Source: Bugula neritina
Taxonomy: Eukaryota > Animalia > Bryozoa
Direction of reading: 5' to 3'
Length of the DNA: 64,000 nucleotides
Assembly (NCBI GenBank): GCA_964035545.1
Contig: OZ037769.1
Coordinates: 11,004,633 to 11,068,632 of the forward strand
Position numbers and translations under genes: made by a program. A model generated the notes under the pieces. The model worked only from the letters and a program-made list of their open reading frames with translations. It had not been told where the DNA came from and ran no database searches. This document shows, piece by piece, positions 487 to 46,620 of the stretch (its first letter is position 1; each line of letters opens with the position of its first letter).

Positions 487-1088
487 AATATAATATACTG
501 AATATTATTAATATAATATACTGAATACTATCAATATAATATACTGAATACTATCAATATAATATACTGAATACTATCAATATAATATACTGAATACTAT
601 CAATATAATATACTGAATACTATCAATATAATATACTGAATACTATAATATAATATACTGAATACTATCAATATAATATACTGAATACTATCAATATAAT
701 ATACTGAATACTATAATATAATATACTGAATGCTGTCAATATAATATACTGAATACTATAATATAATATACTGAATGCTGTCAATATATTATACTGAATA
801 CTATCAATATAATATACTGAATACTATCAATATAATATACTGAATACTATAATATAATATACTGAATACTATAATATAATATACTGAATATTATTAATAT
901 AATATACTGAATACTATAATATAATATACTGAATACTATCAATATAATATACTGAATATTATTAATATAATATACTGAATACTATCAATATAATATACTG
1001 AATACTATCAATATAATATACTGAATATTATTAATATAATATACTGAATACTGTCAATATAATATACTCAATACTATCAATATAATAC
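487..1088. repeat. Minisatellite, ~22-23 bp unit AATATAATATACTGAATACTATC
   Basis: Directly visible tandem array in the intron upstream of a PSPH exon. Confidence 0.95.
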
Positions 1089-1110
1089 ATGATGCAATGT
1101 TACATGGCAG

Positions 1111-29153: not shown

Positions 29154-32100
29154 TTGCGTTCATTCCTGCATTAATTTTTGTTGCGTCAAGAAATAAAACA
29201 CTGCAAGCTAACTGCGATTTCGAGTCAGATTTAAGCACTGCCCATCTTTTGTATATTTTCTTACCTCCAATAACTGGCATTCTGCCATTATCTATTGAGG
29301 ACACAACTCCTGGGAGACCACACAAGGAGCCAGCTAGTATCTCTATAGAGGAAGTGTGGGGGGCCATGACGAGTATGGGCGCCTCTTTACTAGTAACCTG
29401 CTTGCCCTTGACTCTTTGTATAAAAAATCCACTCACATAGCCAGTAAGTAAAGCTAATCGTACTGTTAAATCTCTGAAAATGCTGAAATAATAAATTATA
29501 ATATTTAGCTGCATAAAGGACTAGGCGTATTATCAAAACTAATTGAATTTTGCTAGAAAATTTGCATTTGAGCATCAACTCGCTAAGAGCCACAGTAACC
29601 ATTAAAAATGCAAATGCTCACGTTCAAGCATTAACAAGGCATAAACAAGACGAGTTCTGTTTAGGTATTAACTCTGCCAGATAAATTATACCTAAAAGTT
29701 TGGTGAGAGTTTTGTAATAAAATATATTGAGTGCAAGTTTTTTTTGTTTTTGCGTAATCAATTTTAATGCAGTTCATAATAACTTATTAAAAGCTCAATA
29801 CTGGTTTACTGGCACTATCATGGGTGATCGATTACTTGTGTCTTGCAGCAAATTTTCTCACCATAATCATACAAAAGTTGTTCGTTAAAATTTTATGGAG
29901 GCAATTTCAATCTTCAAAGTATGTGCTGTTTAATGCAAAACAAGCTAAACTAGGCAAAACCAATCGCCAAATGTCCCACCACTTTTTTTCTATAAACATT
30001 GAGGGCATAAAACATTGTCAAGTAGGCAGAGCTTAAATTCTCGTGCTCTGAGTAGACTAATATGCTAACTGTATGATACAAAGAGCTCAAAACTTGATTC
30101 GAGAAAAGATCAACTGAAATAAAATTGAAATTAAGGAATTTCTTTAGACATTGGGTATAATGCATAACATCATATACTCTATATTTTTACTTTTAATAAA
30201 AAGTGAAAACCACCTTATTACAGGATTCACAAACAACATGATTTTTGCACATTGACAGGATAAAATATCAGTAGTAGTAGGTGGATGGTCCTAGGACAAC
30301 CCTTCCCCCGTCGAGTCTTCGACTCTCCGGTGTCAGGGATTGTCCCAGGACGCATCCACCTACTACTACTCTATTAATGTTTTTATTAAGTTTTAAAAAT
30401 TGTACGTTTTAGGACAGTTTATTATTTTATTGTCCTAGAATTGTATGTTTTTAGGTTGGTTTATTATTTTATTACTGTTAATTTAGAATAAAAAAAAAAA
30501 GCAATTACTCATTAATACTATTATAATAAAGTTTAAAATATACGTAATGAAAAGGTAATGCCGTATCAGTTATTTCGCTAGCGGGAGTATCAGTTAAAAT
30601 TACGTCATTGGGTTTATGACTCGGATAATCACTCGAAAGAGCTATTGTAAATGAAAAATTATTATTAGCGTTAATAATTTTATTAATATTTATTTTACTA
30701 TACGGAACATTATGTTCAGCACCGCTTATATCATAAAATAAATTTTCTTTAGATTCATCAAATGGGTTTACGCTATTACGAATATGTAAACCTATTTTTT
30801 TATCAGTCCAATATAACGCTTTTGTTTTATTTTTAGTATAATGTTCACCATAAAATTGTATTAACGCGTGCGTTATTTTTATAGGTTTATTTACTAAATA
30901 ATCGTTAATTAAATCTACCGTAAAACTATTAATATTTTCGTAATAATAAAATTTATTATTATTTATAATACCCGAAATAAACGCTTTATTAGTCGTTATA
31001 TCGACTTTATTAAATTTATAAATATTCATTTATAATTATAATAAAGTTTTATTAATACGTAATGAAAAGGTAATGCCGCATTGGTTATTTCACTAGCGGG
31101 AGTATCGGTTAAAATAACATTACTAGGTTTATGACTAGGATAAGTTTTTGATAATATTATTGATAGTGAAAAGTTTTTATTAGCTTCAATAATTTTATTA
31201 ACGTTTATTTCGCTAAACGGAACATTATGTTCAGCACCGCTTATATCATAAGAAAAAAAAATATTTTCAGCGACGTCACTATACTTAAATGTGTTAGCGC
31301 TATTTCTAATTTCTAAGTTTAATCGTTTATCAGTCCAATAAAGTTCTTTAGTATTATGAGCTTGTTCACCGTAAAAATGTACTAATATATTTGTTATTTC
31401 AATCGGTTCATCGACTAAAAAATCTCTAATTAATATTCCTTCAAAATAATCATCTCTAATATTTTTTATAAAATATGACGGAATTATAATATTCGTAATA
31501 TACGGTTTTTCATTTATTATATTGGCTTTAGCCGAATTTCCAAAAATATATACCGAATTCATTTATAGTTATAATAAAGTTTTACTAATACGTAATGAAA
31601 AGGTAATGCCGCATCAGTTATTTCGCTAGCGGGAGTGTCGATTAAAATTACGTCACTAGGTTTATGACTAGGATAATTTTTTGATAATGACATTGTTAAT
31701 TTAAAGTTTTTATTAGCTTTAATAATTTTATTAGCGTTTATTTCGCTAAACGGAAGATTGTGTTCATTACCGCTTATATTATAAAAAGTATTTTCATTGG
31801 ATGGATTAAATAATTCAGTACTATTTCTAATATGTAAGCCTATTCGCTTATCAGTCCAATAAAGTTTTTTAGTATTATGAGCTTGCTCACCGTAAAATTG
31901 TATTAATATATCCGTTATTTCAATTGGTTCATCGACTAAAAAATCTTTAATTAATGTAGTAGTAAATCCTCCTAAATAATACGTAAATTCTGACGGAATT
32001 ATAATATTCGTAATATACGGTTGTTCATTTATTATATTAGCTGAATTTCCAAAAATATATACCGAAGTCATTTATATAAGTAATTTATTTATAATTAATT

Positions 32101-35100
32101 GAGGTGACTCGCGTTTAAACATTTCTTTAAGCCAGTATAAACACAAGTGTCCGCATATAACCGTACCGAATTTTTGTACTCGTTCCGTGTTATAAAATAT
32201 AGGCGGTTTTAAATATTTCATTATTTCTAGCGGAGGATGTAATCCGAAACTATCGAAATAATATTTTTTATTTCCGTTTTTATACCAAGCTACCCAATGA
32301 GTACCGTTACCCATTAAATCGTCTAAATTTAATATACCACACTCTTTTTTACGCGGCTTATCGGGTAAATCGTTTCTTGAGAATACTCCTCTAAAAAATG
32401 GTATTTTTAATTTTTTAATCGCAAACTCTAATTCAATATTTGAGAGAGCTTTATTTTGTAATTTTATATTTTTTATTTTAATCATTTATATAACCGTAAG
32501 GGACTGTCATTATACCGTTTTTTAATATAATTCTTTTATCGTCTTCGGATGATAATGCCACTTTATTTATAGTCTCGGCATACATCGTATGCTTATGACT
32601 TCTTAACACGTTCATCGTTCTAAATTGATTTCGCCGCGTTAATAAACACTCTTTATAATCATCAAATGTTATGCGATTATCACGAGTTGTTTTATTAATA
32701 CCCTTACATTTTTTCTCTTCTATATCATCCATTTTGTAAGAATATAATTTAGCTCTTAGGCCTATAAATTCTGTAATTTGCTTGCCACCGGCTTCATCCT
32801 TAAACTTTCCTATTACTTTTTTATTTTTACCGGTTGGTATACCCGATTTATGATTTTTTGGATAATTACTCGTGTCAAATTTATTTTCGATATCCGGTAA
32901 TATATCTTTATAAAAATCTTTAGTTTGCACGTGATACATTAAGCTATCTGTATCCGTAAACAGTAACTGAGCTTTATTACCGTATTTAAGTCTAATATAC
33001 TCGTAATGAAAGTCGTACATTAGAGTTTTACTAATGTCTAATATAGCCGCACCTAAATATATAGGCTTGTCAAATTTTAATTTTACTACATTCATATGAA
33101 CGGCTATTAAATTTTTAGAAAATATAGTGAAGTTTTTAAAGTTAGGCTGATTAGTTAATTTTTTAGCTTCGCTTTCGCTAGTAATTAACTTAATGTTAAC
33201 TCTATTTCGTATATTTTCCATCGTTTTACCAAACACGGAATTATTCATTAGCTTAAAAAAATCTTTTTCAAAATCACTCTTAGCTAAAGTTCTTAGTTCG
33301 GTATTTAATTTTATATATTTTTCTAACTTATTCGATTCATTAAAGGTTATACCTCTATGAATCTTCGTTAATTTTAAGCCGTACATAAGACATTGTTCCA
33401 ACGCTTTATAGTGTATAACGTAATTCTTTTTATTATTTAAGTTTGGCACCAACTTTTCTACTTTGTTAATTATTATTCTTTCGGGGCAAAACGGATAATC
33501 TTTATGCGTGTCGTGTAACTTCTTAGAATATTCTAAATCTACTTCCAAAAAGCTAGGCGGAAAGTTTAAACTTTTTTCTAACTTACGGCATTCTCTTTCG
33601 CTTAGCCACTTAAAGTTACTTACGGGTAAATTTTTAGACATGGCCCATCCATATAAATTATTAGCATCTAAATACGTAATATAACTACTAGGCTCTTTGG
33701 GATTATAATTAGTCATATATTCATTATTAGCTCGAGCGTATCTATGACTAATCATACTTACTCCCCCTCTAATTCCTTTTTCAAAGAAGAGTAATTGCTC
33801 AATGTTAGTAATTGGATCCAACTCTAATTCCGTAGTTTTGAGCATAGCGTCCCAACTTAAACCCGGTGCCGTATAGTACCAAGCCGGATCTAATTTATAA
33901 TATTCGAGGCATACGTCTCTAAAGTTTTCAAAAACGTCAGCTAATTGAATTACGTCGACTTCCATATACAAGTCGTGATATTCTCTAAACGTTTTCATAT
34001 TAAACTCTCGCCAAACGTTTTGAGCGTGTTCGTAATCCTCATCGCTTATATTACTTTCAGTTAAACTCGAGTAAAACTTTTCTTTTGGTGGTAAAGACGT
34101 TTCATCCAACACGCTTACGTTATTGAAATAGTCGTACGGAAATACTCCTTTTCTTAACAATAAGCTTAATTTATTTTCATTATTAAAATGTTGTTGTAAG
34201 TATTTAAAGTCATTACGTTTTAAATTCGCTACTAAGCTCGCTAAACTAGAACTCATAAATTTATACGAGTCTAAAAAGCGAATTTCACGCGTAACTTTAA
34301 CTTTTTTACCTTCATTATTAGTAAATTCGTCTACTATTATTTTTTCATTAAACGATATATATTTTTCTTCAGTGTTGGGTATACACGAAATTTCACCGCT
34401 TAAATTTTTAACGAATAAGTGAGCGTCGTAACCCGACAAGTTATGAATAAATACCGGATAAAATTTTGGAATTTTATAATTTAAATTACAATTATTATGA
34501 GCCGCTCCTCTATAGTTTCCGGTTAAGTGGCAGTGATCTCTCACTCTGTCATTACCCAATTTTTCTTCGCATATATAACAATTTTCGGCTAATTCGAAAG
34601 ACTTTTGTTCGCTAGCCGAAATTTCCATTGATTTAGGAAACTTATGTTTTTTATACAAGTTTTTAATGTCGAGTTCTAATAATCTCATAAATAGTTCACC
34701 AATATTTTCGTCTTCGTATTGCTTAGTATAACTTCTGTACTCGCACTCGCCGGTAACGCTCACGATATAATATCCGAAACCCGACGGTTCGTGTTGCTGA
34801 TATTGGTTAGTATAGCTTTTCTGAAAATTAGGCTGACAACTTTGTATAGGCTTAGTAAAACATTCAAAGTCCGCGTATACCACAAACGGTACTCTCATAC
34901 TACGGCAATGGTGACTAGACTGAAATTTTATTTTATTTTCTATTTTCGGAAAGACCGTAGTTACGCCTTCGTTCGTTAAACACCAATCTTGATGCTTTTT
35001 TAAAGATTCGTTAGATCGAAACGAATTCATACAATTTACGCAAATATGTTTAGCGCTAACGCGTTTATTTATTTGCGAACCGAGTAATTTATTTAAATTT

Positions 35101-38100
35101 TTAATATAAGCGTAATGACTCTTTTTGTCGTCGCTTATATAAAATAAATTTATAATTTTACCCTGATTTTTAGTTTTTTTCCATAAATTTATTGTTTTAC
35201 CGTCCCACGTAAATACATTAATTCCAAAATCGGAATTAACCTCTTCAAAAGCGTCAATAGATTTTTTAGTAGCGGGAAATTCAACGCCTTCCCACGAAAA
35301 TTTATTAACGTATTCTTTATAATTATTAATTCTTTCGGGATGGTTTTTAGGCGTATAAACACTCATTAAAATGGCCCACATAAAGCACTTATTATCCTCA
35401 TTTTTAGGATTTATTACGGCTTTTTTTAATTTAATTTCTTTCGGAAGATCAATCCACGATGATCCGTTAAGAGGTTGATATTTATTAATATTAATTTCCA
35501 TTTTTTTAATGGCTTTAAACATCCAGCTACTTCCTTTCGCGTTTAACGAAGCAAAATTTTCTTTTATACGTTCAATTATTTCATCGTATATTTCATTAAT
35601 ATTTGTAGACTCTAATATAGTTTCAATATTTGATGTAAATGGCATAATTTCTACAATAGTTTCTCCGGTACGTACATTAATTTTTTCCATTTCGCAATAC
35701 ATAAATATTTTAACTTTTATAGTAGGTTTCAATAATTCTATTACATTTAATTTTACTAGTTTACTAAACGAATCTATATCGTATTTGGGTAAACCTTTAA
35801 TTTCATAAGTTTGAAACCAACCATTAGCGGCTTGTTCTTTAAGTTTAGGCTGATTATATAAAGCCATAATTTTATCCTTAATTGGATTTATAATTTTTGT
35901 AATTGGCTTTATAACCCATTTTTTTATATTACGCGTAGTTTGCGTAAATATTTCTCGCATAATTTTTTTTACGGGTGTAGGTATTAACGGGGCTTGTCCT
36001 ATATTCGGAACGGGTTCGTCCATAGGCGATAATAGCCGTATAAGTTCGGCTTTTTTTAATCGAGAATATCGTTTCAATCCTCTTTCTTTAGCTAAAGCTT
36101 TTAAAGCTTTTACGGTAATTTTTGTATTGAACTCCATTTATATAATATATTCTTTAATAGTAATATCAATTTTTAATATTATTACTTATGTAAAATAAGT
36201 AATAATACTGGGCTGTTATACGTCTCTATTTTCTTCTTTTAGTTTATAAGCTTCGCGTTTTAAAATACTTTTTATATAAAAATATTTATTAATGTTAGGA
36301 ATTTGTTTTCTCGTTCTAAAATTAATTTCTTTAAGAGATATATTATTAATTACTGGTATATATAAATATTCGAGTAACGGTGTATATTTTTTTTGTTCGG
36401 TTTTAGCTATTAGTTTATCGAGTAATTCAACGGTAAGATCCATATTATAAAATAATAAAATAATAAAAATCATTTTTTTATATAAATGGATTTTCGACGA
36501 GAAAAATTAGAACTTTTAAACGATGAAATTATTAAATTAGAAAACGAATACGAGCAAAAACTTAATCGTTTTAATTGGTTATCAAAATCGTTAAAAATAA
36601 TTTCGGGATTATGCGGTACAACGAATTTAATATGCGGTGTCATTATTACGGCATTAATAAACGCTAACGTTACTAAACAAACGTTATTACCATTATCTAT
36701 AATAGTAAGTATAATGAGCGTAATTACTACTTCTATTTCTTCTCAAGATACTAAATTAATTAAATCTACGTTAATGTATTTAGATATATATACGTTTATA
36801 AAAGATTCAAAATTAGAAATTAATTCTATGTTATCAAAATTTTTAAGCGACTCTTATATAGACGAACAGGAGTATGACGCTATAACCGAAAAATATAAAA
36901 ATATTAATAGCGTAATAGTGAATAAAAAAAGCGATATAATAGTCGCTCGTAACAACGTTTGTTAATTACTTGCAAAATGCAATTAATTAAAAAAGGAAGT
37001 TCAATATAAAAATTATCCGTATATTTATATATGTTTTCTTTAACTATCATTTCGTCTTTTTTCTATTTCGTCTTCGGCGTATTTTAGTTTAGTAAAGAAT
37101 GACGGTATTCTAGCCGCCGCGTAATTCATTAAACCTACATTAAGTTCTTGAATTATTTCTTTAGTTTTGTAAATAGTTTTTATTTTTAATTTTCCATCAT
37201 TTTCTTTATAAATAATTTCTTTTTTATTATTATAAGTAATTTCTTCGAGTAATCCGCACTCATTAGTTGAATTATTCATTTCGTCTAATATATTAAAATT
37301 TTTATATATAATTCTTTCTTTAATATCACCGCCTTCGTACACTCGTTTTTCGTATTCGGAAGTTTTATATATTGTTTCGGTAATCGGGGTGCCGTCGAGG
37401 CTTTTATAAGTAATTACTGTTGACATTTATATACGTTTTCTTTAACTATAACAGCATACCTAAAAGAGGAATATTTTTAAACGGACTATTCGGACCTAAA
37501 ATTAAACCTTCGCCTTTTATATAGCTAGAACCTTGTTTTAAATATAAACCGTTACCTTTCATTAAATTAGACGACGCGACTGGTTTTAAAGTAATAGAAC
37601 CGTTTAAATTAGGTTCTACGGAACATACGCATCCGCCTTTTTTCAAATAAAGACCTTTACCTTTAATAGCTCTTTCGACTCCCGCGCTAGCGGCTCCTGA
37701 AAGTACACCCGGTATAATAGTTTTTAATAGCGTAGGTATTACTCTCGTAGCTATACCTAATAGAGCTCCTAAAAATCCTCCGCTCATTGACGCGTTAGTT
37801 TTTACTAATGACGGAGACATTTCGAGCGTTATATTTTTTTTATTCGCGTTTAACGCTTTTAAAATATTATCATTTTGCGTTTTCGTAACGACTAGTTTAT
37901 CATTTCCGCTTTCGAGAGGCAATTTAATAACGCAACCCTTACCGCTTCTATAAGCGTTCATTATTTTTTGTTTTTGCGCCTGCGGCACGTTTCCTATAAT
38001 TTCGCAGTAACCCATTTATATAATACATTAAACTTCTCTTAAATGAAATCTTATCGAGAGTTGTTCACCGCTAAGATCTAATAAATTACCTTTTTGATCG

Positions 38101-41100
38101 GTTACCGTAACGGTTAACGTCTTAATATATTTAACGTGAACGGGTAAGTATATTAAATTATGAGGTTTTTCTATTATTTTATATCCCGGACTAACGCTCG
38201 GAAAAAATGAATAAATAACGGGTTTATAAGTACCATCGATATAACTTCCATTAATACAATCAACTTGTACGTGTATAGCGTTTATATTTAAAATATTTAC
38301 TATGTTCGTAGCTTCGATATAAGGTTGATTATATATCGCCGCGTCAAAACCTAAAACGTCTCTTAGAGAATTTTCAACGTTAAAATCTATTCGATAATTT
38401 GGTTTTAATTTAAGTATAATTCTAAAAGTTACTTTATTAGCTTGTAAAGTAATACCGTTTCTATTACCCCCCTCTTTTACTATTTCGTCTTGAATAGTTT
38501 CTTCTAGTTGATCTAATTCGTACACTCCGACTGGTAACGAAACTAAATGCCACGTAGTACCACCGTCTTTAGACCATCTATAGGAATTTCTATCGGTACT
38601 AATGTTTGGAAAAGAATAAAACGTATCCAAACTAATAAGACACATTTCGTATTTTTTATTTTTATTTAATTCTATAGGCGGATTAAGTTGAGTAATTATT
38701 CTCGTTTTAGTATCGGTAACTCCTATAGTCATCGTTTGTTTAGAGGCCGTATTATCAGCAATTTCTCTTAATAATTTGTTTTCCATTTATATAACTTTTA
38801 AATTGTTTCCATCGGAACTGAGAGACATAGTTTTATCCGATAGAATTAGCGCGTAAGCTTGAGTATCAGCCGGCACGTTTTGACTAAACTGAACTCTTAA
38901 TTGAATATCGGCTACGCTACTTTTAAGAGCTTCGCTTTGCTTACTAACGTCTATTACGAACAAAGCGTAAAGATCTTTATATTCCGAAGGTAATACGTTT
39001 GAATAAGCGATTAGCTCGTTTATACCGTAATATTCTCCGCAAAACTTAGAAGCGTCTCCGTACACTCTACTAAACTTCATTTTAGCGAAATCTATATCGT
39101 AATCAACTTCGGGATACCGCTCACTGTTTAGCATCGCGTATATACTTTTAACGTTAACGTGATCGAATACGGCCGGATTAGTCGTTTGACTTTCAGTCTT
39201 ATCCGTTTGAAAACCTACAATAATATATTTAGGTTTTTCGGTATCTCCTCTAGAACCCAAACGCCACGTAAAGTTAGTAGTTTGCGGCACCGCGATACTA
39301 TCACACCATCTAGATCTATAAATTAGGGGTAGTTGCGCCTTACTCTCTATAATTTTATAGAGTTTATGCTTCATTTCAAAACTAGGCGTTACGTGAGGCA
39401 TCCACCACGATACTTTATTCAACGTTATTTTTCCCGCGTCTACGCCGTTAGCTCTATAAATAGCGTTATCGTTAGTATCGCGTACTAGCGTTAGTTGATG
39501 TTTTATACCGTATAATACTTTTTCGTAATCATCGGCGAATCCGAACAAATGTCTGAGATCCACTTTAATACTAAAAGTACCTTTAGGATCCGGCTTTTGT
39601 ATAATATAAATTTGACGCGCGTTAAAACCTAAATTAGCGGCGGCAGCGGCTGCGGTAGTATCTTTTGACCACAACTGATTAAGACCTCTCGACTTACCGT
39701 AGTCGTCGGGATAAGTTAATAAACCCATCATGGTCGAAGCGTGTCCGGGATTATTTATATATTCCAAGTCGTGTCCGTCGAGTTGATATCTAATACTTTT
39801 AAACAAATAAGCCATACCGTTATTCGTTAACGTTACTAAGTCGGCGTCGGCGTAAGCGGTTCCGTCATTTTTCGTTAAACGTCCTTCGATAATTAAATAA
39901 CTTTTACTCGGCTGAACGTACAAATCTTGTTGATTAATAACTATTCTAATTTCACTGGGAGTATTTAAATTCGTTCCCGTTACGGGTTCGTATTCGTGTA
40001 CCTGATCGCGCTCTACGCTCGTATCGAGTACAATTTTTTGTGTAATGTTCAGAGAATCCATTTATTATAGTAAAATAATTTCTTAATAAGCTATAGCTTG
40101 TCCGCTTCCTTCTAAAATATTACTTATATTATTATTGTTTAATATATTTTTAGTTTGATTAAGCTTTTGTAGTATAGCTTGACTTTTAGCGTTTAACTTT
40201 TTTTGTCTTCTTTTTTTAATCGCGTTAACAATTTTTTCACCGGCCGCGGTACCCGCTTTAGCTATAGCCTTTTTACCTAATTCTCTTACGCTGGAATTAC
40301 TAGCTATTTTAGTTACTACATTCCTAATGGTATCAAATATTCCACCACCGGCGTAGTGTTTTTGTAATCGTTGTCTTTTATCGTAAACGTACATTTATTA
40401 TACGAGAATACTTTTATAATAGTCACGAGTAATAATTTTCATTCTAAGTAATTCGTCTAATATAGACACAATTTCGTTTCGTACTCCCGTATTTCCGGCT
40501 TTAGCGCTAGAAATTAAAAGTTCGAGTCGTTCTACTAAAGCGTTAGGATCAGACGATAAATATACTACTCCATCACCGACTTGCCTTTTAGCTTTTTTAC
40601 TATCGGCGAGTTTCGCTCTCTGAGGATATAATTGTTCCCAAATAGGTCTAACAATATTTTTCCATTTTTCACTATTTTTATCTATGGGACCGTGTTTACT
40701 TTGATATATAGCGCCGCTATTATCGAGTATATTAGCGTAATTCGCTAAATCATTATCATCGTATCCTATAGGCGTTTTACGCGTTAAAAGACTTAAAAGT
40801 CCTCTAGTCGCCGGATATTCTTCGTTTTCAAAAATTATTTTACCATCGTTAAAACTTATAGGTTTCGTACCAATAACGTGTCTATTACCATCCCACTTTA
40901 CGTTATAAGCGCCGGGTTCTAAGCCAGCTAAAGCGTTTTGCGTATATTCGTCTAAATTTATAACTCCATCCGTTATAGCCGGTTGAACATTATAATTGGG
41001 TAATGTAAGCAATTGTTTTAACGCGTCAGTCGTTTGAGCTTGCGAAGTCGTTACGGGTTCAAAATATTTTTCTTGAGCTATAGCGGCATTTAATTCTCGC

Positions 41101-44100
41101 TCGCGTTCTCGTTTAAAATTTTCTTTTAATTTATTCTTTCGAGAAATAAAATCTTGTACGGTTTTATCTCTTTTTATAGGGTCGTGAATCTTTAAGTAAC
41201 TCATTTATTATATATTAATTTGTGTCTACTTTTTATGGACACAAACACATTTGTGTCTACTTTTTATGGACACAAACACATTTGTGTCCACTTTTGTGTC
41301 TACTTTTTATGGACACAAATACATTTGTGTCTACTTTTTATGGACACAAACACATTTGTGTCTACTTTTTATGGACACAAATGTGTTTGTGTCCACTTTT
41401 GTGTCTAGTGTCCACATTTGTGTCTAGTGTTCACTATAATCGTTCTAAAACGTTTAAATTTACCCAAGAGTTTTGAGAATCGGGATAACCTAACCATTTT
41501 ACTAAAGCCTTTTTACCTTTCTTTTTAATTACGCGTTCTATTCTATACATTTCTTGACTCGTCTTTTGTAATTCCTGTTCGTAAAAAGATCCTTGAATTT
41601 CTTCTCCACCCGAGTCGGTTAATTTATAAGTAGTCGGATTAGTATATAATATTTTACTTATAGTAAACACTTCCTCCGTCCATCTAACGGTATAACCTTT
41701 TTCAAACGTTCGTTTCTTACGAGGTATACGTACTCTATCACCTATAGCGAATTTAGGTTTAAAAGGCGCTGGTAAGTTTGAATATAATTTCACGCGTACT
41801 TTATTTTCATTAGAAGGATTACTAGCTTCAATCGGTGTCATTCCAATAGACGAATGTTTAGTCTCGTTATACCGTTTTACTAAATCTTTTAGTACGTCTA
41901 TATATTTATAAGTATTATTAGCCGAAAAATATTTAAACATTCGCTCTTTCATTGTTCTATTCCACCTCTCTACTACGCTAGACTTTTCTTCATTTTCCGT
42001 AGAATATAAGTCTATTAAAGACTTTACGTCTTTGTTATAAAATTCTTTTCCCTTGTCAACCCATAAATGTTGTGGCTTACGACGAGTTAAAATCGTTTTT
42101 AAAGCTAAAGCAACGGCTTTTCCGGTTTTATTTTTTAAAGGTATTATCCAACCGTATTTTGAAAACACGTCTATTACCGTTAGTAAATATTTATAACCGT
42201 TATTAAATTTAGCGAATTCAGTCATATCAACCAAGTCAGCCGCCCAAATATTATCGATACCCGATACCCAAACTCGTCTTTTACGAAATTTTTTTTGTAC
42301 GGGTTTATGTAGTTCTTCGGCTAACTCGTTCGTCCATCCCCATCCTAAGCGTTTTTTCGCTCCTATTATTGCCGAGGCGAAACGACTGTGTCGCTGTTCA
42401 GCGGGTGTAGGATTAGGTATAGCTTTCAATTCGTCTAGCATATTTTTATCGCATATTTCGTTTCTAGTCTTAGTATCTTTATTAAGCGCGTAACATACGT
42501 CGTGTCTCATGGCTATAGCGTCGTCTCGATCTACCGGTTTACTCCATTCTTTAGGAGTCGTGTCGTCATTAAGACGTTTATTTAATTTAGTACCCGGTCC
42601 TAAAAAATTATGGCCTGGATAATGCAATTCGAAGGGTAAATTATTTATTAAATTATTAGCTAAACCCGACCCAACGAATGTAGTTTTTTTACATCCGCAT
42701 TGACCGCAATTACCGTAACCCATTAGTCTATTATTTTTACTTACTCTCTTTTCGTAATTAAGAGTTTTCGTTTTAGTTTTACACTTACAACAATACATTT
42801 ATTATAATAAATGGAAAAAGAAAATCTTTCGTGGAAAAACGAAATTAATCGTAATAATAATCCTTTACTCCCTAAAAGCATAAGAGGTCTTATCGTTGGA
42901 AAGTCTGGATGCGGTAAAACTACGTTACTTTGTAACTTACTATTACAACCTAATTGGCTCGATTACGATAAACTTATGATTTACGGTAAAAGTCTTTCTC
43001 AACCCGAATATATAAATATGAGGAAGGCTTTCGAACTTAAATTAACTAAAGAAGAAATTTTAAATTTTTTTAAAAATAGTGACGCGATAATAAATTCGGG
43101 TATAAACGTAAATCGTGTTTTAAAAAATAGTAGGGGTAACGGTAATATAGACGCCGAATTTATAGAATCTAGTGACGACGTTTATGATCCTAGCGAATTA
43201 GACGTTAATAATAAAAATTTAATAATATTCGATGATTTAATGTTGGAAAAACAAAAAACTTGCGAAAGTTATTACGTAAGAGGACGACACAATAACGTCG
43301 ATTGTTTTTATTTATCGCAAAATTATTTTAAGCTGCCTAGAAATACTATTCGAGAAAACGCTAATTTTATTTGCTTATTTCCTCAAGACGGAAAAAATTT
43401 AAATCATATATATCAAGATCACGTAACCGGAGATTTAACGTTAAACGAATTTAAAAACTTTTGTTATAAAGGATGGCAAAAACCTCACGGCTTTATTACT
43501 TTAGATCTTTCTTCCTCAAAAAATAATGGGAGATATAGACACGGGTTAGACGAATTTTATATACCGTAATAAATGAGTGTTTATAAATTCGGAGGAAGCG
43601 AAAAAACAAAAATAGATACAAAAAAATTCGTTTTAATAAACGGTAGTAGTACTCTTACGGGTACATTAGATATGGGTGAAAATAAAATATCTAGAGTTAT
43701 TAATCCGGCTGACAATCAAGACGCGGCTACAAAAAAATACGTTGATGATACGAGTATGCCTAAAATACAAAACCCTATTAATCAGTTAACTATATCAACT
43801 GATGATGGACGCGTTATAGATAGTAATTTAAAAGTTGATGATGTTGTTACAAAAACTAATGTATTTAATTACGCAGTACCTCTTATACGAGACCCGAGTG
43901 AAAAATTAACCGTATCAACTAATACGGGTAATATTGTAGATAGTAGCTTAAGCGTTAGCGATATTGTTACGACTAGTAATATAAATAATTTCGCTATAAA
44001 TAAAATACAACCAGCGAATGAAAAATTAACCGTTTCGACTACTTCGGGTAATGTTGCGGATAGTAGTTTAAGCGTTAGCGATATTATTACGACTAGTAAT

Positions 44101-45680
44101 ATAAATAATTTCGCTATGAATAAAATACAACCAATAATCGGAAGTAAATTATTAATGCTTTCGAGTGATGGTAATATTGTAGAAACGAATATAAATATTT
44201 CGGATCTTATTACAATAAATAATATATCGGATTACGCTATTCCTAAATTACAGGGAGCAGTTGGTAATAAATTAATTATATCAACGAGCGATGGTAATAT
44301 AATAGAATCTACAGAATCTCAACCCACATTTCCAAGTTATAACGTTTAAACACTAAATTATTATATTCTTAACGTATAATAATTTATTATCTTATTAATA
44401 GTAACGAGTGAATGCATTCTGAAATAAAAGTTAATGTTTGTCCTAAAAACGTACAATTCTGAAACAAAACTCTATAAAATATTTTTTTATTCTAAATTAA
44501 CAGTAATAAAATAATAAACTATCCTAGAACGTACAATTCTGGGACAGTAAACTCAATAAAACAATAAACTGTCCTAAAACGTACAATTTCTAAAACTTAA
44601 TAAAAACATTAATAGAGTAGTAGTAGGTGGATGCGTCCTAGGACAATCCCTGACACCGGAGAGTCGAAGACTCGACGGGGGAAGGGTTGTCCTAGGACCA
44701 TCCACCTACTACTACTAATATCGCTATTATAAGTTTTATACATACAGCCGCCAGCCGGCCAGAGGCGTGTCTGGCTCCAAGGGAAGACCGAAGACTGCGA
44801 TACGAGCAGCAAGAGAAGTCAATGCAAAGCAGGAGAAAATAAGAGCCAATCGAATAGGTGCTATAGTCACTGCCATTATATAAAACTACAATATTTGATA
44901 TATAAATGTAAGTCTTTAATTATCTTTTCAAGTACTGCATGCATGAAAATTTGTTTTGGAAATTTCTTATACTATAATTATAGTCTATAAGTGTTTATAC
45001 TATATCATGACATAGTTTGTAGAAACAAACCTATAAAGGTATAATTAACATAGCATTCACATATATGGCAAAACTCATTGTGTAAACTGAAATGCAATTT
45101 TGCAACTACTCTGAACAGATTTGTAAATGTATTAAGCCACTTTTCTAGACAAGAAGATGAAAGTCAAATAAAAATACAAATCATTCAAGTGATTGAGCAG
45201 TCATAGCATTTAAGAAAGATTAAGGCTTATTTTGTTAGAACGAATAATTTTCGTAAAAGCATGTTCTCAGAATTAGGGTGTTTTACGAAGCATGTGAGAT
45301 TGCTGTCTGCAAATTAAAAGAGAACTCTGGTATTACAGTACTTAATTTTACAAAAATTACAAAGCTTAGAAAGAAGGTGTTACAAAAGAAAATGCCCAAA
45401 GATTTAAAATTTAAAATTAATTTTTCAACAGCAGAATATGTCTTTCTAAAAATGTTTCAAACAAATTATTATCATTAAAACACCAAAACCAGTTTTAATC
45501 AAACAGCCAAAGATACAAAAACACAAAATGAATGTAAACACTCACAACTATTCTATCCCAAAACGTTGTGTAGAGAGTATATCTAAAAGGGTGAGTATTG
45601 AGCGAGCTGTCTGACACAGAGTTATTATGTAATCCATTGCTGTCTCTTTTGTAATCCAAGTCTTCTGCTGCCTCGGCCAT
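25558..45680 (-). CDS. LPCAT-like lysophospholipid acyltransferase paralog A (~352 aa, 7 exons; Polinton in intron 2)
   Basis: Exons 45546-45680, 44746-44885, 29265-29482, 28278-28451, 26796-26889, 26063-26200, 25558-25717; TIAPIR, EAPILVMAPHTSSIE, WPQIIILPEG, FKTGAFLPGVPVQP, PVYDPSEAEKENAELYARNVR. Confidence 0.88.
27275..27487 (+). mobile_element. tRNA-derived SINE copy, full length
   Basis: GGGAGCAGCCATGGTCTAGGG...GGTTCGAGCCC...TATAAACTTGCGTGAGT. Confidence 0.85.
27853..28063 (+). mobile_element. tRNA-derived SINE copy with (TGAG)n tail
   Basis: Same family; followed by the second copy of a 19-bp direct repeat. Confidence 0.85.
29068..29155. repeat. (TG)n microsatellite
   Basis: Directly visible. 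Confidence 0.97.
30270..30496 (+). repeat. Left TIR of the Polinton; outer 101 bp form a hairpin
   Basis: Reverse complement of 44482-44716; outer 101 bp differ at one base, inner part has substitutions and a ~9-bp indel. Confidence 0.95.
30505..31029 (-). CDS. Polinton orphan paralog 3 (174 aa)
   Basis: ORF shares LYWTDK, YDISGAEHNVP, YPSHKP, DTPASEIT, LPFHYV blocks with its two neighbours. Confidence 0.85.
   Translation of the reverse strand: MNIYKFNKVDITTNKAFISGIINNNKFYYYENINSFTVDLINDYLVNKPIKITHALIQFYGEHYTKNKTKALYWTDKKIGLHIRNSVNPFDESKENLFYDISGAEHNVPYSKININKIINANNNFSFTIALSSDYPSHKPNDVILTDTPASEITDTALPFHYVYFKLYYNSINE
31026..31562 (-). CDS. Polinton orphan paralog 2 (178 aa)
   Basis: Same conserved blocks; ATGA overlaps with both neighbours. 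Confidence 0.85.
   Translation of the reverse strand: MNSVYIFGNSAKANIINEKPYITNIIIPSYFIKNIRDDYFEGILIRDFLVDEPIEITNILVHFYGEQAHNTKELYWTDKRLNLEIRNSANTFKYSDVAENIFFSYDISGAEHNVPFSEINVNKIIEANKNFSLSIILSKTYPSHKPSNVILTDTPASEITNAALPFHYVLIKLYYNYK
31559..32071 (-). CDS. Polinton orphan paralog 1 (170 aa)
   Basis: Same conserved blocks; ATG immediately follows the protease stop. Confidence 0.85.
   Translation of the reverse strand: MTSVYIFGNSANIINEQPYITNIIIPSEFTYYLGGFTTTLIKDFLVDEPIEITDILIQFYGEQAHNTKKLYWTDKRIGLHIRNSTELFNPSNENTFYNISGNEHNLPFSEINANKIIKANKNFKLTMSLSKNYPSHKPSDVILIDTPASEITDAALPFHYVLVKLYYNYK
32072..32485 (-). CDS. Adenain-like cysteine maturation protease
   Basis: GTHWVA (His), YFDSFG (Asp), VQ...ICGHLC (Gln, Cys) motifs. 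Confidence 0.93.
   Translation of the reverse strand: MIKIKNIKLQNKALSNIELEFAIKKLKIPFFRGVFSRNDLPDKPRKKECGILNLDDLMGNGTHWVAWYKNGNKKYYFDSFGLHPPLEIMKYLKPPIFYNTERVQKFGTVICGHLCLYWLKEMFKRESPQLIINKLLI
32478..36137 (-). CDS. Protein-primed family B DNA polymerase (1219 aa)
   Basis: Exo motifs YADFE, HNLSGYD, YMEVD; pol motifs YLDANNLYGWAM, KLMNNSVFGK, FTDTDSL; also Rho_N-like N-terminus, OTU-like segment, Zn finger and endonuclease VII-like insert. Confidence 0.97.
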   Translation of the reverse strand: MEFNTKITVKALKALAKERGLKRYSRLKKAELIRLLSPMDEPVPNIGQAPLIPTPVKKIMREIFTQTTRNIKKWVIKPITKIINPIKDKIMALYNQPKLKEQAANGWFQTYEIKGLPKYDIDSFSKLVKLNVIELLKPTIKVKIFMYCEMEKINVRTGETIVEIMPFTSNIETILESTNINEIYDEIIERIKENFASLNAKGSSWMFKAIKKMEININKYQPLNGSSWIDLPKEIKLKKAVINPKNEDNKCFMWAILMSVYTPKNHPERINNYKEYVNKFSWEGVEFPATKKSIDAFEEVNSDFGINVFTWDGKTINLWKKTKNQGKIINLFYISDDKKSHYAYIKNLNKLLGSQINKRVSAKHICVNCMNSFRSNESLKKHQDWCLTNEGVTTVFPKIENKIKFQSSHHCRSMRVPFVVYADFECFTKPIQSCQPNFQKSYTNQYQQHEPSGFGYYIVSVTGECEYRSYTKQYEDENIGELFMRLLELDIKNLYKKHKFPKSMEISASEQKSFELAENCYICEEKLGNDRVRDHCHLTGNYRGAAHNNCNLNYKIPKFYPVFIHNLSGYDAHLFVKNLSGEISCIPNTEEKYISFNEKIIVDEFTNNEGKKVKVTREIRFLDSYKFMSSSLASLVANLKRNDFKYLQQHFNNENKLSLLLRKGVFPYDYFNNVSVLDETSLPPKEKFYSSLTESNISDEDYEHAQNVWREFNMKTFREYHDLYMEVDVIQLADVFENFRDVCLEYYKLDPAWYYTAPGLSWDAMLKTTELELDPITNIEQLLFFEKGIRGGVSMISHRYARANNEYMTNYNPKEPSSYITYLDANNLYGWAMSKNLPVSNFKWLSERECRKLEKSLNFPPSFLEVDLEYSKKLHDTHKDYPFCPERIIINKVEKLVPNLNNKKNYVIHYKALEQCLMYGLKLTKIHRGITFNESNKLEKYIKLNTELRTLAKSDFEKDFFKLMNNSVFGKTMENIRNRVNIKLITSESEAKKLTNQPNFKNFTIFSKNLIAVHMNVVKLKFDKPIYLGAAILDISKTLMYDFHYEYIRLKYGNKAQLLFTDTDSLMYHVQTKDFYKDILPDIENKFDTSNYPKNHKSGIPTGKNKKVIGKFKDEAGGKQITEFIGLRAKLYSYKMDDIEEKKCKGINKTTRDNRITFDDYKECLLTRRNQFRTMNVLRSHKHTMYAETINKVALSSEDDKRIILKNGIMTVPYGYIND
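36216..36473 (-). CDS. Polinton hypothetical protein (85 aa, or 75 aa from the ATG at 36443)
   Basis: ORF fills a gap in the compact element; start uncertain. Confidence 0.55.
   Translation of the reverse strand: MIFIILLFYNMDLTVELLDKLIAKTEQKKYTPLLEYLYIPVINNISLKEINFRTRKQIPNINKYFYIKSILKREAYKLKEENRDV
36486..36965 (+). CDS. Polinton putative membrane protein (coiled coil + two hydrophobic helices)
   Basis: 159-aa ORF with ATAAATG start; hydrophobic LICGVIITALI and LLPLSIIVSIMSVIT. Confidence 0.75.
   Translation: MDFRREKLELLNDEIIKLENEYEQKLNRFNWLSKSLKIISGLCGTTNLICGVIITALINANVTKQTLLPLSIIVSIMSVITTSISSQDTKLIKSTLMYLDIYTFIKDSKLEINSMLSKFLSDSYIDEQEYDAITEKYKNINSVIVNKKSDIIVARNNVC
37040..37426 (-). CDS. 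Polinton hypothetical protein (128 aa)
   Basis: ORF with ATAAATG start and repeated (T/I)-I-(Y/T)-(K/Y)-like strands. Confidence 0.7.
   Translation of the reverse strand: MSTVITYKSLDGTPITETIYKTSEYEKRVYEGGDIKERIIYKNFNILDEMNNSTNECGLLEEITYNNKKEIIYKENDGKLKIKTIYKTKEIIQELNVGLMNYAAARIPSFFTKLKYAEDEIEKRRNDS
37446..38015 (-). CDS. Putative virion core protein, adenovirus pX-like, with several adenain sites
   Basis: MSGG/FLGALLGIA resembles the pX C-terminal region; IKGKG, MKGNG, IKGEG fit (M/I/L)XGX/G. Confidence 0.75.
   Translation of the reverse strand: MGYCEIIGNVPQAQKQKIMNAYRSGKGCVIKLPLESGNDKLVVTKTQNDNILKALNANKKNITLEMSPSLVKTNASMSGGFLGALLGIATRVIPTLLKTIIPGVLSGAASAGVERAIKGKGLYLKKGGCVCSVEPNLNGSITLKPVASSNLMKGNGLYLKQGSSYIKGEGLILGPNSPFKNIPLLGMLL
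38028..38786 (-). CDS. Minor capsid (penton) protein
   Basis: Size, position next to MCP and Polinton mCP-type motifs LNPPIEL, FPNIS, LPVGVYE, VLGF, CINGSY, LIYLPV, DQKGNLLDLSGE. Confidence 0.85.
   Translation of the reverse strand: MENKLLREIADNTASKQTMTIGVTDTKTRIITQLNPPIELNKNKKYEMCLISLDTFYSFPNISTDRNSYRWSKDGGTTWHLVSLPVGVYELDQLEETIQDEIVKEGGNRNGITLQANKVTFRIILKLKPNYRIDFNVENSLRDVLGFDAAIYNQPYIEATNIVNILNINAIHVQVDCINGSYIDGTYKPVIYSFFPSVSPGYKIIEKPHNLIYLPVHVKYIKTLTVTVTDQKGNLLDLSGEQLSIRFHLREV
38787..40061 (-). CDS. Major capsid protein (double jelly-roll)
   Basis: 424 aa; EIRIVINQQDLYVQPSKSYL, YLFKSIRYQL, LFGFADDYEK, EKPKYIIVGFQ, LNSERYP, LFVIDVSKQ typical of Polinton MCP. Confidence 0.9.
   Translation of the reverse strand: MDSLNITQKIVLDTSVERDQVHEYEPVTGTNLNTPSEIRIVINQQDLYVQPSKSYLIIEGRLTKNDGTAYADADLVTLTNNGMAYLFKSIRYQLDGHDLEYINNPGHASTMMGLLTYPDDYGKSRGLNQLWSKDTTAAAAAANLGFNARQIYIIQKPDPKGTFSIKVDLRHLFGFADDYEKVLYGIKHQLTLVRDTNDNAIYRANGVDAGKITLNKVSWWMPHVTPSFEMKHKLYKIIESKAQLPLIYRSRWCDSIAVPQTTNFTWRLGSRGDTEKPKYIIVGFQTDKTESQTTNPAVFDHVNVKSIYAMLNSERYPEVDYDIDFAKMKFSRVYGDASKFCGEYYGINELIAYSNVLPSEYKDLYALFVIDVSKQSEALKSSVADIQLRVQFSQNVPADTQAYALILSDKTMSLSSDGNNLKVI
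40083..40394 (-). CDS. Small basic putative core/membrane-active protein
   Basis: YAGGG followed by amphipathic IFDTIRNVVTKIAS; C-terminal LEGSG fits the adenain consensus. Confidence 0.7.
   Translation of the reverse strand: MYVYDKRQRLQKHYAGGGIFDTIRNVVTKIASNSSVRELGKKAIAKAGTAAGEKIVNAIKKRRQKKLNAKSQAILQKLNQTKNILNNNNISNILEGSGQAIAY
40398..41204 (-). CDS. Polinton hypothetical protein (268 aa), probably conserved
   Basis: N-terminal coiled coil; C-terminal YLSSDPNALVERLELL..AGNTGVRNEIVSILDEL resembles a recurring Polinton core-gene domain (recalled, not searched). Confidence 0.7.
   Translation of the reverse strand: MSYLKIHDPIKRDKTVQDFISRKNKLKENFKRERERELNAAIAQEKYFEPVTTSQAQTTDALKQLLTLPNYNVQPAITDGVINLDEYTQNALAGLEPGAYNVKWDGNRHVIGTKPISFNDGKIIFENEEYPATRGLLSLLTRKTPIGYDDNDLANYANILDNSGAIYQSKHGPIDKNSEKWKNIVRPIWEQLYPQRAKLADSKKAKRQVGDGVVYLSSDPNALVERLELLISSAKAGNTGVRNEIVSILDELLRMKIITRDYYKSILV
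41219..41433. repeat. Array of 31-bp palindromic units TTTGTGTCTACTTTTTATGGACACAAACACA inside the Polinton
   Basis: Five units plus partial copies, intergenic. Confidence 0.9.
41434..42798 (-). CDS. Retroviral-like DDE integrase fused to an N-terminal Zn ribbon and parvovirus-type PLA2, with C-terminal chromodomain
   Basis: CCKC...CGQC; HNFLGPGT...DAIAMRHDVCY; WAADLVD, WVDKGKEF, VVERWNRT; YRIERVIKK...ALVKWLGYPDSQNSWV. Confidence 0.95.
   Translation of the reverse strand: MYCCKCKTKTKTLNYEKRVSKNNRLMGYGNCGQCGCKKTTFVGSGLANNLINNLPFELHYPGHNFLGPGTKLNKRLNDDTTPKEWSKPVDRDDAIAMRHDVCYALNKDTKTRNEICDKNMLDELKAIPNPTPAEQRHSRFASAIIGAKKRLGWGWTNELAEELHKPVQKKFRKRRVWVSGIDNIWAADLVDMTEFAKFNNGYKYLLTVIDVFSKYGWIIPLKNKTGKAVALALKTILTRRKPQHLWVDKGKEFYNKDVKSLIDLYSTENEEKSSVVERWNRTMKERMFKYFSANNTYKYIDVLKDLVKRYNETKHSSIGMTPIEASNPSNENKVRVKLYSNLPAPFKPKFAIGDRVRIPRKKRTFEKGYTVRWTEEVFTISKILYTNPTTYKLTDSGGEEIQGSFYEQELQKTSQEMYRIERVIKKKGKKALVKWLGYPDSQNSWVNLNVLERL
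42811..43569 (+). CDS. A32/FtsK-like DNA packaging ATPase
   Basis: Walker A GKSGCGKT, Walker B IIFDD, RGRHNN, YLSQNYFKLP..IREN. Confidence 0.95.
   Translation: MEKENLSWKNEINRNNNPLLPKSIRGLIVGKSGCGKTTLLCNLLLQPNWLDYDKLMIYGKSLSQPEYINMRKAFELKLTKEEILNFFKNSDAIINSGINVNRVLKNSRGNGNIDAEFIESSDDVYDPSELDVNNKNLIIFDDLMLEKQKTCESYYVRGRHNNVDCFYLSQNYFKLPRNTIRENANFICLFPQDGKNLNHIYQDHVTGDLTLNEFKNFCYKGWQKPHGFITLDLSSSKNNGRYRHGLDEFYIP
43573..44349 (+). CDS. Fibre-shaft-like repeat protein (258 aa)
   Basis: LDMGENKI...DNQDAATKKYVD neck-like motif followed by ~5 repeats of 40-41 aa (KLTVSTxxGNIxDSSLSVSDI). Confidence 0.75.
   Translation: MSVYKFGGSEKTKIDTKKFVLINGSSTLTGTLDMGENKISRVINPADNQDAATKKYVDDTSMPKIQNPINQLTISTDDGRVIDSNLKVDDVVTKTNVFNYAVPLIRDPSEKLTVSTNTGNIVDSSLSVSDIVTTSNINNFAINKIQPANEKLTVSTTSGNVADSSLSVSDIITTSNINNFAMNKIQPIIGSKLLMLSSDGNIVETNINISDLITINNISDYAIPKLQGAVGNKLIISTSDGNIIESTESQPTFPSYNV
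44482..44716 (-). repeat. Right TIR of the Polinton
   Basis: Inverted copy of 30270-30496; hairpin at 44616-44716. Confidence 0.95.
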
Positions 45681-45719
45681 TGTGAATGTTAGCTCTGCAG
45701 TACAATAGAACTCTTAGTA

Positions 45720-46620
45720 TACCACATGTGTAGACTATAGATGGTATGCTACATAGTATATAGGTGGTATATACCATAGTATATAGATAGTATATCCCAT
45801 AGTATATAGATGGTATATTACATAGTATATAGATGGTATATTACATAGTATATAGATGGTATATCCCTTAGTATATAGGTGGTATATTACATAGTATATA
45901 GATGGTATATTACATAGTATATAGGTGGTATATTACATAGTATATAGATGGTATATTACATAGTATATAGATGGTATATTACATAGTATATAGATGGTAT
46001 ATTACATAGTATATAGATGGTATATTACATAGTATATAGATGGTATATTACATAGTATATAGATGGTATATTACATAGTATATAGATGGTATATCCCTTA
46101 GTATATAGGTGGTATATTACATAGGATATAGATGGTATATTACATAGTATATAGATGGTATATTACATAGTATATAGATGGTATATCCCTTAGTATATAG
46201 ATGGTATATCCCTTAGTATATAGGTGGTATATTACATAGTATATAGATGGTATATCCCTTAGTATATAGATGGTATATCCCTTAGTATATAGGTGGTATA
46301 TTACATAGTATATAGGTGGTATATTACATAGTATATAGATGGTATATCCCTTAGTATATAGATGGTATATCCCTTAGTATATAGGTGGTATATTACATAG
46401 TATATAGGTGGTATATCCCTTAGCATATAGGTGGTATATCCCTTAGTATATAGGTGGTATATTACATAGTATATAGGTGGTATATTACATAGTATATAGG
46501 TGGTATATCCCTTAGTATATAGGTGGTATATCCCTTAGTATATAGGTGGCATATTACATAGTATATAGATGGTATATTACATAGTGTAGATGGCTTATAC
46601 CACATAGTGTAGATGGTATA
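45720..46620. repeat. Minisatellite, 23-bp unit TATATTACATAGTATATAGRTGG and variant TATATCCCTTAG...
   Basis: Tandem array just upstream of the LPCAT-A start codon. Confidence 0.95.

What the first reader, a model, noticed from the sequence alone, without database searches (positions are those of the whole stretch)
30505..32071. Tandem trio of orphan paralogs: conserved scaffold with hypervariable loops
Three 170-178-aa proteins share near-identical blocks (FYGE, LYWTDK, IRNS, ISGxEHNxP, YPSHKP, DTPASEIT, LPFHYV, KLYYN) separated by short segments that differ in sequence and length: SEFTYYLGGFTTT / SYFIKNIRDDYFEGI / NKFYYYENINSFTVD and TELFNPSNENTF / ANTFKYSDVAENIFFS / VNPFDESKENLF. Aromatic-rich variable loops on a probably beta-rich frame suggest a diversified receptor-binding or anti-host cassette at the genome end. 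I recognise no family.
Basis: partly seen in the sequence, partly recalled or inferred. Interest (0 to 1): 0.8.

Follow-up and report, generated by a model that had tools for sequence, protein, structure and literature searches.

The report
Polinton's variable shaftless fibre heads
A virus-like mobile element (Polinton/Maverick) inserted in an animal genome carries three related genes predicted to fold as small beta-sandwich heads; they begin with the same short tag as the element's own fibre-like protein, which ends without a head, so they are likely stubby, fast-changing attachment spikes on the virus particle.

Summary
The trio is real. It forms the last three genes of an intact 14,447-bp Polinton/Maverick (160-bp inverted ends, 6-bp target duplication) in an intron of a host acyltransferase gene. 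AlphaFold gives a confident jelly-roll beta-sandwich (pLDDT 83) with a disordered 9-residue tail. Best structural matches (birnavirus spike domain, TNF ligands, phage cement proteins) reach only Z 7-7.8, so the fold class is clear but no family is. The new evidence is the tail: VY(K/I)F(G), in 28 of 35 database relatives, recurs among the element's other 12 genes only at the start of the fibre-shaft gene (profile E 9e-7). That fibre has no head here, while a relative's has a C1q-like head. There are two subfamilies with uncorrelated variable patches. A/B changes concentrate at variable sites (15/22 vs 26/148); dN/dS is 1.6 there and 0.46 elsewhere, but not significantly above 1. Gene C carries a patch that looks converted from type A. 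Best reading (0.55): shaftless capsid spikes docked through the shared tail, by analogy with the adenovirus fibre tail. Docking, trimer and receptor are untested. All 15 element genes start at TAAATG.

The parts
31559..32071 (-). Head gene A (type A), 170 aa, predicted single jelly-roll beta-sandwich with an N-terminal tail
31026..31562 (-). Head gene B (type A clade, divergent loops), 178 aa
30505..31029 (-). Head gene C (type C), 174 aa
   Evidence: type C clade 99/98 support
32042..32071 (-). N-terminal tail of A (VYIFG motif), disordered in the model
   Evidence: pLDDT below 50 at residues 1-5 and 7-9
31955..31975 (-). Type-A variable patch 1 (residues 33-39 of A)
31784..31819 (-). Type-A variable patch 2 (residues 85-96 of A, hairpin loop)
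30550..30594 (-). Patch of gene C that resembles type A (likely gene conversion)
   Evidence: identity 0.83 to type A vs 0.56 to type C; A-C DNA identity 98% over A residues 147-161
43573..44349 (+). Fibre-like gene, 258 aa: same N-terminal motif (VYKFG), phage tail-fibre repeat, four 40-42-aa repeats plus a partial fifth, no head domain
   Evidence: (PHROG tail fibre E 8e-6)
38028..38786 (-). Probable penton (minor capsid protein); inferred docking site for the tail
   Evidence: inference from size and position beside the major capsid gene; no family hit above cut-off
38787..40061 (-). Double jelly-roll major capsid protein
   Evidence: PF21738 E 1.6e-57
32072..32485 (-). Adenain-like maturation protease, directly upstream of the trio
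   Evidence: PF00770 E 0.006 (below cut-off)
32478..36137 (-). Probable protein-primed family B DNA polymerase
   Evidence: size and recalled PolB motifs read; no PolB Pfam hit
41434..42798 (-). rve integrase with PLA2-like domain and chromodomain
42811..43569 (+). A32-like packaging ATPase
   Evidence: PF04665 E 2e-8
30270..30429 (.). Left terminal inverted repeat, preceded by target duplication AATATC
   Evidence: 157 of 160 bases match
44557..44716 (.). Right terminal inverted repeat, followed by AATATC

Best explanation
The three ORFs are tandem paralogues at the left end of an intact animal Polinton; each is predicted to fold as a single jelly-roll head behind a short tail shared with the element's headless fibre-like protein, and they likely act as shaftless attachment spikes that would dock on the capsid vertex through that tail. 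Shown: element anatomy, paralogy, the shared tail, two subfamilies, clustered variation, a headless fibre ORF. Predicted: the fold. Inferred: virion location; docking in the clefts between penton subunits, as the adenovirus fibre tail does; trimer formation through the conserved sheet; binding of host-cell (or helper-virus) surface ligands through the variable surfaces. Type A varies on one sheet face plus two hairpins, type C mainly in three loops likely at the tip, which suggests two ligand classes or two escape surfaces. Gene conversion likely keeps frames alike and moves patches between paralogues.
For: Tail: motif in 28 of 35 database relatives P0001-P0035; 6 of the 7 misses lack the N-terminus or are broken, 1 is a variant. 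Among the element's 12 other ORFs the motif occurs once, at residue 3 of the fibre gene (chance about 2e-4, motif chosen after the fact). Profile-profile match of the head and fibre families is confined to the N-terminus (E 9.4e-7 pairwise; 1.5e-5). Fibre relatives P0036, P0037 and P0044 keep the motif. The tail is disordered in the model, as an anchor peptide would be. Relative P0044 has tail, shaft and an all-beta C-terminal domain (Atlas TM 0.63 to a C1q domain, below the naming bar); the window's fibre stops where that head begins. Fold neighbours include capsid projections and fibre tips: IPNV VP2 P domain Z 7.8, rmsd 3.8, 125 aligned; 4-1BBL Z 7.0, rmsd 3.4, 116 aligned; collagen-fibre and tail-fibre proteins in BFVD. 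Outward positions on four strands vary in type A, while those of the other four are conserved. A/B amino-acid differences: 15 of 22 at independently defined variable sites vs 26 of 148 elsewhere, p 3e-6; frame dN/dS 0.46, pN below pS at p 0.02. Adenovirus fibre tails bind the cleft between penton monomers through FNPVYPY (PMC8156859).
Against: No structural match reached Z 8; the top rows are tied with unrelated jelly rolls (GOLD, seipin, IFT25, CBMs), so the fold does not specify function. The shared motif is only 5-8 residues and its partner is unknown; type C has a degenerate form (YKF then N, S or G). The trio lies beyond the polymerase and protease, away from the capsid block and at the opposite end from the fibre gene. 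dN/dS at variable sites is not significantly above 1 (p 0.76) nor above the frame's N:S ratio (p 0.19); dS is raised there too (0.48 vs 0.21). Overlap of the type-A and type-C variable sets (3) equals chance (2.98), so they are independent, not mutually exclusive. Strand faces and loop ends are inferred from strand order; no coordinates were available. The penton is itself assigned by position only.
Confidence: 0.55

Rival explanations
1. Virion surface proteins, but anchored elsewhere: the tail binds the major capsid protein (decoration or cement role, like adenovirus IX/LH3) or drives mixed oligomers with the headless fibre, as proposed for PRD1 P5 and P31, which share N-termini.
For: Trimeric cement and capsid proteins are among the tied fold matches (7dou Z 7.0, 7eel Z 7.0). 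The fibre has no head. P5/P31 precedent in PMC5850374; LH3/IX in PMC8156859.
Against: A tail shared with a fibre points to the fibre's docking site, which in adenovirus is the penton. A head with its own anchor does not need the shaft.
Confidence: 0.15
2. Non-structural proteins that bind host defence factors or a helper virus inside the cell; the shared tail is a targeting or protease-processing signal.
For: Terminal position, typical of accessory genes (recalled). I-F-G-G-S in several relatives fits the recalled adenain consensus, and such sites occur in ORF 37446-38015. All 15 ORFs of 100 aa or more start at TAAATG, hinting at dependence on a helper virus.
Against: The window's own tails (IFGNS, YKFNK, KFGGS) do not fit that consensus (one search found no site in the fibre); the conserved residues are the aromatic Y and F. 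The only other carrier of the motif is a fibre-like protein.
Confidence: 0.2
3. Whatever the function, the variable sites only reflect relaxed constraint on exposed positions plus conversion that homogenises the frame; no diversifying selection.
For: dN/dS not significantly above 1; dS also raised at variable sites; conversion-like tract in C.
Against: Positions variable in type A are nearly fixed in type C and the reverse (rho 0.01), which exposure alone does not predict; one sheet face is conserved in both.
Confidence: 0.25
4. The trio are duplicated, derived pentons (minor capsid proteins).
For: Single jelly-roll fold; some adintoviruses have duplicate pentons (10.1101/2024.03.25.586562).
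Against: No similarity to the element's own 252-aa penton candidate (hhalign probability 0.4%, E 0.14); the tail is shared with the fibre, not the penton.
Confidence: 0.05

Closest known systems
Adenovirus fibre (tail, shaft, knob) and multi-fibre adenoviruses (HAdV-F40/41, aviadenoviruses, LAdV-2); PMC8156859, PMC5850374
   Same: Short aromatic N-terminal tail before a beta head; several fibre genes in one genome would compete for the same vertex.
   Different: No shaft in the trio; the tail motif differs (VY[KI]FG vs FNPVYPY) and homology was not tested; best fold matches are jelly rolls of other families; four tail-bearing genes, one a headless shaft.
PRD1 spike P5 with penton P31 (PMC5850374)
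   Same: Vertex proteins of a double jelly-roll virus that share N-terminal sequence; a knob on a capsid vertex.
   Different: P5 has shaft and knob in one chain and shares a whole domain with the penton; here only a 5-10 residue tail is shared, and with the fibre.
Birnavirus VP2 projection (P) domain (PMC10179583; 3ide, 2df7)
   Same: Jelly-roll projection with variable BC, DE, FG and HI loops; best structural match among Foldseek's candidates (Z 7.8).
   Different: There it is an insert in the capsid protein of an RNA virus; Z under 8 may be only a common fold.
TNF/C1q homology domain (4-1BBL; PMC6224509)
   Same: Jelly roll with one sheet forming the trimer core and a DE loop contacting receptor; matches the inferred conserved face and variable hairpin of type A.
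   Different: No Pfam TNF or C1q hit in 35 members; extra long loops; oligomer state unknown.
Polinton/adintovirus and PLV fibres (PMC8502044, PMC12220804, 10.1101/2023.08.22.554363)
   Same: Fibre-like genes occur in this virus group and are proposed to attach to the penton and set host range.
   Different: Described ones are long modular chains (S74 chaperone, laminin G, collagen, beta-helix); stand-alone shaftless heads with a shared tail were not found in the searches run.

Membership tests
Polinton/Maverick (adintovirus) | Terminal inverted repeats and 6-bp target site duplication | tested here: met
   157/160 match, AATATC on both sides
Polinton/Maverick (adintovirus) | rve integrase (with chromodomain) | tested here: met
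   PF00665 E 6e-9, PF00385 E 2.5e-5
Polinton/Maverick (adintovirus) | Double jelly-roll capsid protein and packaging ATPase | tested here: met
   PF21738 E 1.6e-57; PF04665 E 2e-8
Polinton/Maverick (adintovirus) | Protein-primed PolB and adenain protease | tested here: inconclusive
   protease E 0.006, below cut-off; no PolB Pfam hit, assignment by recalled motifs (divergent Beta PolB is described in PMC8502044 section 3.1)
Adenovirus-type fibre | N-terminal tail that binds the penton | tested here: inconclusive
   Conserved, disordered aromatic tail shared with the fibre gene; binding not tested
Adenovirus-type fibre | Repetitive shaft between tail and head | tested here: not met
   The trio's head starts at about residue 12-19; repeats lie only in the separate ORF 43573-44349
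Adenovirus-type fibre | Adenovirus knob fold | tested here: inconclusive
   top rows are jelly rolls of other families, none at Z 8 or more
Adenovirus-type fibre / TNF-C1q | Homotrimer | not testable with these tools
   Needs biochemistry or a structure; no usable computation was obtained
TNF/C1q superfamily | Profile match to TNF or C1q families | tested here: not met
   0 of 35 members at E 0.1 or better
TNF/C1q superfamily | Jelly-roll topology close to TNF ligands | tested here: inconclusive
   4-1BBL Z 7.0, rmsd 3.4, 116 aligned, tied with unrelated folds
Duplicate penton | Homology to the element's penton | tested here: not met
   E 0.14, probability 0.4%

The most novel reading that the evidence does not exclude
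An animal Polinton has taken the adenovirus-style fibre apart: a headless shaft and a cassette of stand-alone heads are separate genes that all plug into the penton through one short tail, giving particles a mosaic of spikes whose binding surfaces are reshuffled by gene conversion among many genomic copies, and transcribed from poxvirus-like late starts. This would be sequence evidence that these elements are under selection at an extracellular, infectious stage, and would name the first testable attachment proteins for them.
Probability: 0.3. Interest if true: 0.75.

Novelty: new variant of a known kind. Interest (0 to 1): 0.52.

Why it matters
How animal Polintons enter cells, and whether they do so as free virions, is open; the papers read propose fibres mostly for protist PLVs. 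A family of small, soluble, diversifying candidate attachment proteins can be expressed, solved and screened for ligands without any virus. The shared tail gives a simple tag for finding vertex proteins among unnamed Polinton genes. The family appears narrow so far, which limits its reach.

Tried and rejected
Homotrimer prediction of gene A: verdict 'no answer', score 0.00, alignment not used, fold uncertain; not evidence either way. AlphaFold of fibre relative P0044 failed (pLDDT 36), so no fold search was run on it. No related loci in IMG/VR with the trio, capsid, penton or ATPase queries or in JGI metagenome contigs. The tail-motif DNA pattern gave 28 IMG/VR matches, 2 in frame (33-aa ORFs) and none with a tblastn hit to 9 element proteins: chance. 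No longer, fused forms among 7,991 candidates (weak evidence). No match in GenBank phages. No adenovirus knob or solved penton in the top 50 rows. Atlas features for P0025: unnamed Bacteroidota clusters at 0.92 and a PHR cluster at 0.89, leads only. RWD Pfam hit (6 of 35 members, best E 0.018) rejected as below cut-off and inconsistent with the model. No RNA holder listed. Joints inside the trio are single contigs between similar paralogues and cannot give copy number. No whole genome is held. Term searches of PMC11296320 and PMC11161782 gave 0 hits. Findings index: nothing by sequence or place.

Full report
Observation. Three minus-strand ORFs lie head to tail at 31559-32071 (A), 31026-31562 (B) and 30505-31029 (C). 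All 8 conserved blocks occur in all 3 proteins and the 6 variable segments are as quoted. B and C are 76% and 61% identical to A. Pfam, PHROGs and PDB sequence searches give no family.

Context. The trio are the last genes of a 14,447-bp element, 30270-44716, with 160-bp inverted ends (157 matches) and the duplication AATATC on both sides. It encodes a double jelly-roll capsid protein, an rve integrase with chromodomain, an A32-like ATPase and a weak adenain match, plus a 1,219-aa ORF read as PolB from recalled motifs. This is a Polinton/Maverick (adintovirus; PMC8502044, sections 3.1 and 3.2 read). It lies in an intron of a host acyltransferase gene. Four runs laid 869 to 7,000 contigs on it across identity bands from 99% to under 90%, and one contig joins the two flanks. 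Many divergent sister copies and an empty site therefore exist; depth was not used as a copy number. All 15 ORFs of 100 aa or more, the trio included, start at TAAATG, which supports the gene starts.

Family. Searches returned 23 relatives and 18 cluster representatives, 35 distinct proteins, unnamed and mostly from short JGI contigs; their hosts are not known, and many may come from the same host lineage (P0001 is 96% identical to A). A tree of 22 full-length proteins (13 fragments left out) puts A and B in one group (type A, support 94/95) and C in another (type C, 99/98), with five distant relatives outside. Four pairs of type-A and type-C proteins share a contig length (6093, 4262, 1612, 2973), suggesting that the A+C pairing recurs. 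No longer fused form was found (weak).

Fold. AlphaFold with 35 sequences gives pLDDT 83 and pTM 0.81: eight main strands and a disordered tail at residues 1-9. Matches are jelly-roll sandwiches: birnavirus VP2 projection domain (Z 7.8, rmsd 3.8, 125 aligned), 4-1BBL (Z 7.0), phage cement proteins, XepA, GOLD and seipin domains; none reaches Z 8. BFVD lists iridovirus proteins and collagen- or tail-fibre proteins. The fold class is secure; a family is not, and no enzyme fold stands out.

Variation. Variable columns were defined from database proteins only (6 type A, 7 type C): 25 and 21 of 179. Each set is clustered (p 0.004, 0.0002), and the two are uncorrelated (rho 0.01; overlap 3, chance 2.98). 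Type A varies at 33-39, 85-96 and at alternating positions on strands 75-83 and 121-130 (78, 80, 124, 128), which are non-core positions; outward positions on the other four strands are conserved. Type C varies at 25-27, 61-65 and 132-154. From strand order alone (no coordinates), type A's sites would lie on the outer sheet and the hairpin that in TNF ligands touches receptor (PMC6224509, passages), and type C's on the BC, DE and HI loops, as in the birnavirus projection (PMC10179583, passages). This mapping is inferred. A and B differ at 15 of 22 variable codons and 26 of 148 others (p 3e-6). dN/dS is 1.61 there and 0.46 elsewhere; the frame is under purifying selection (p 0.02), but the excess over neutrality is not significant (p 0.76) and dS is also raised. 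Gene C carries a type-A-like patch at A residues 144-158 (0.83 vs 0.56; 98% DNA identity to A), likely conversion. Several of the 24 loose ends shown (of 169) fall at borders of these segments (30558-30598, 31468, 31802, 31976).

The tail. The family starts with M-x(0-3)-(V/I/L)-Y-(K/I)-F-(G/S/N), allowing a few substitutions: 28 of 35 relatives match; six misses are truncated or broken and one is a variant. Among the element's 12 other ORFs the motif appears once, at residue 3 of ORF 43573-44349. That ORF matches phage tail-fibre profiles (best E 8e-6) and consists of 40-aa repeats. Head and fibre profiles align only at the N-terminus (E 9.4e-7). Three of the fibre relatives keep the motif (P0036, P0037, P0044); three weaker hits match only the repeat and lack it. 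Tail variants track between head and fibre in two pairs with equal contig lengths. P0037 and P0044 continue from the shaft into a beta domain with Atlas TM 0.63 to C1q (below the naming bar); the window's fibre stops at that point.

Mechanism. In adenoviruses an extended aromatic tail (FNPVYPY) binds the cleft between penton monomers, and some viruses have two fibre genes (PMC8156859, PMC5850374; passages). PLV fibres are proposed to attach to the penton (PMC12220804, passages), and a fibre-like protein was found in Gezel-14T particles (10.1101/2022.07.28.501842, passages). The simplest reading is that the four tail-bearing proteins share one docking site: three heads without shafts and one shaft without a head. 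The heads would present two kinds of variable surface to host or helper-virus ligands. Docking, oligomer state and ligand are untested; I put this at 0.55. Rivals: another anchor on the virion (0.15), a non-structural interaction protein (0.2), a duplicate penton (0.05; no similarity). Separately, the variation may be relaxed constraint rather than selection (0.25).

Novelty. Searches for Polinton, Maverick or adintovirus with fibre, receptor, promoter and accessory terms (listings) found no description of stand-alone heads sharing a tail with a fibre. Passages were read in 10.1101/2023.08.22.554363, 10.1101/2024.03.25.586562 and PMC9719478. The one supplement file searched for PMC8502044 was cut when stored and gave one 'Fiber' label and no motif hit. 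bioRxiv supplements were closed; their unnamed adintovirus gene clusters could already include this family. Earlier scan notes are leads only: e1-8580207 reports the same TAAATG starts, e1-5308628 a shared N-terminal peptide among giant-virus fibres, and e1-9075764 a variable gene array in a Maverick.

Verdict. New variant of a known kind; interest 0.52.

Noticed in passing
window 30270-44716: All 15 ORFs of 100 aa or more start at TAAATG, nearly all as TATATAAATG or TATAATAAATG; only 2 are explained by an upstream stop codon; 25 of 312 ATGs in the element have this context. It resembles the poxvirus late initiator (recalled). An earlier scan note (e1-8580207) reports the same in another animal Polinton. 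The 85-aa ORF 36216-36473 lacks it.
   Followed up: partly
window 43573-44349: The fibre-like ORF ends after its shaft repeats with no head. Contigs of run X1 return from its end to 43481, and one X4 contig skips 255 nt of repeats, hinting at tandem fibre genes and variable shaft length in sister copies.
   Followed up: partly
window 44716-44760 and flanks: The element sits about 25 nt into an intron of one gene in a tandem array of host acyltransferase genes (PF01553 in 2 of 4 exons tested; LPCAT-like by recall). An empty site is seen in an X4 contig, and an X2 contig covers both flanks.
   Followed up: partly
window 37446-38015 and 40083-40394: Small basic ORFs with adenain-type cleavage motifs (4 and 1 sites; consensus recalled), probably core proteins of the GasderminX and Cupiennin classes of PMC8502044 (by recall, not tested).
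   Followed up: no
window 41187-41438: 31-bp imperfect tandem repeat with palindromic units between ORF 40398-41204 and the integrase.
   Followed up: no
window 30270-30370: Each terminal repeat holds an internal palindrome about 100 nt long (AGTAGTAGTAGGTGG at one end, CCACCTACTACTACT at the other).
   Followed up: no
window 45593-46600: Host 23-bp minisatellite, about 37 registers.
   Followed up: no
P0022: A database protein that runs from the end of one head gene into the start of the next, suggesting tandem arrays in more distant relatives too.
   Followed up: no
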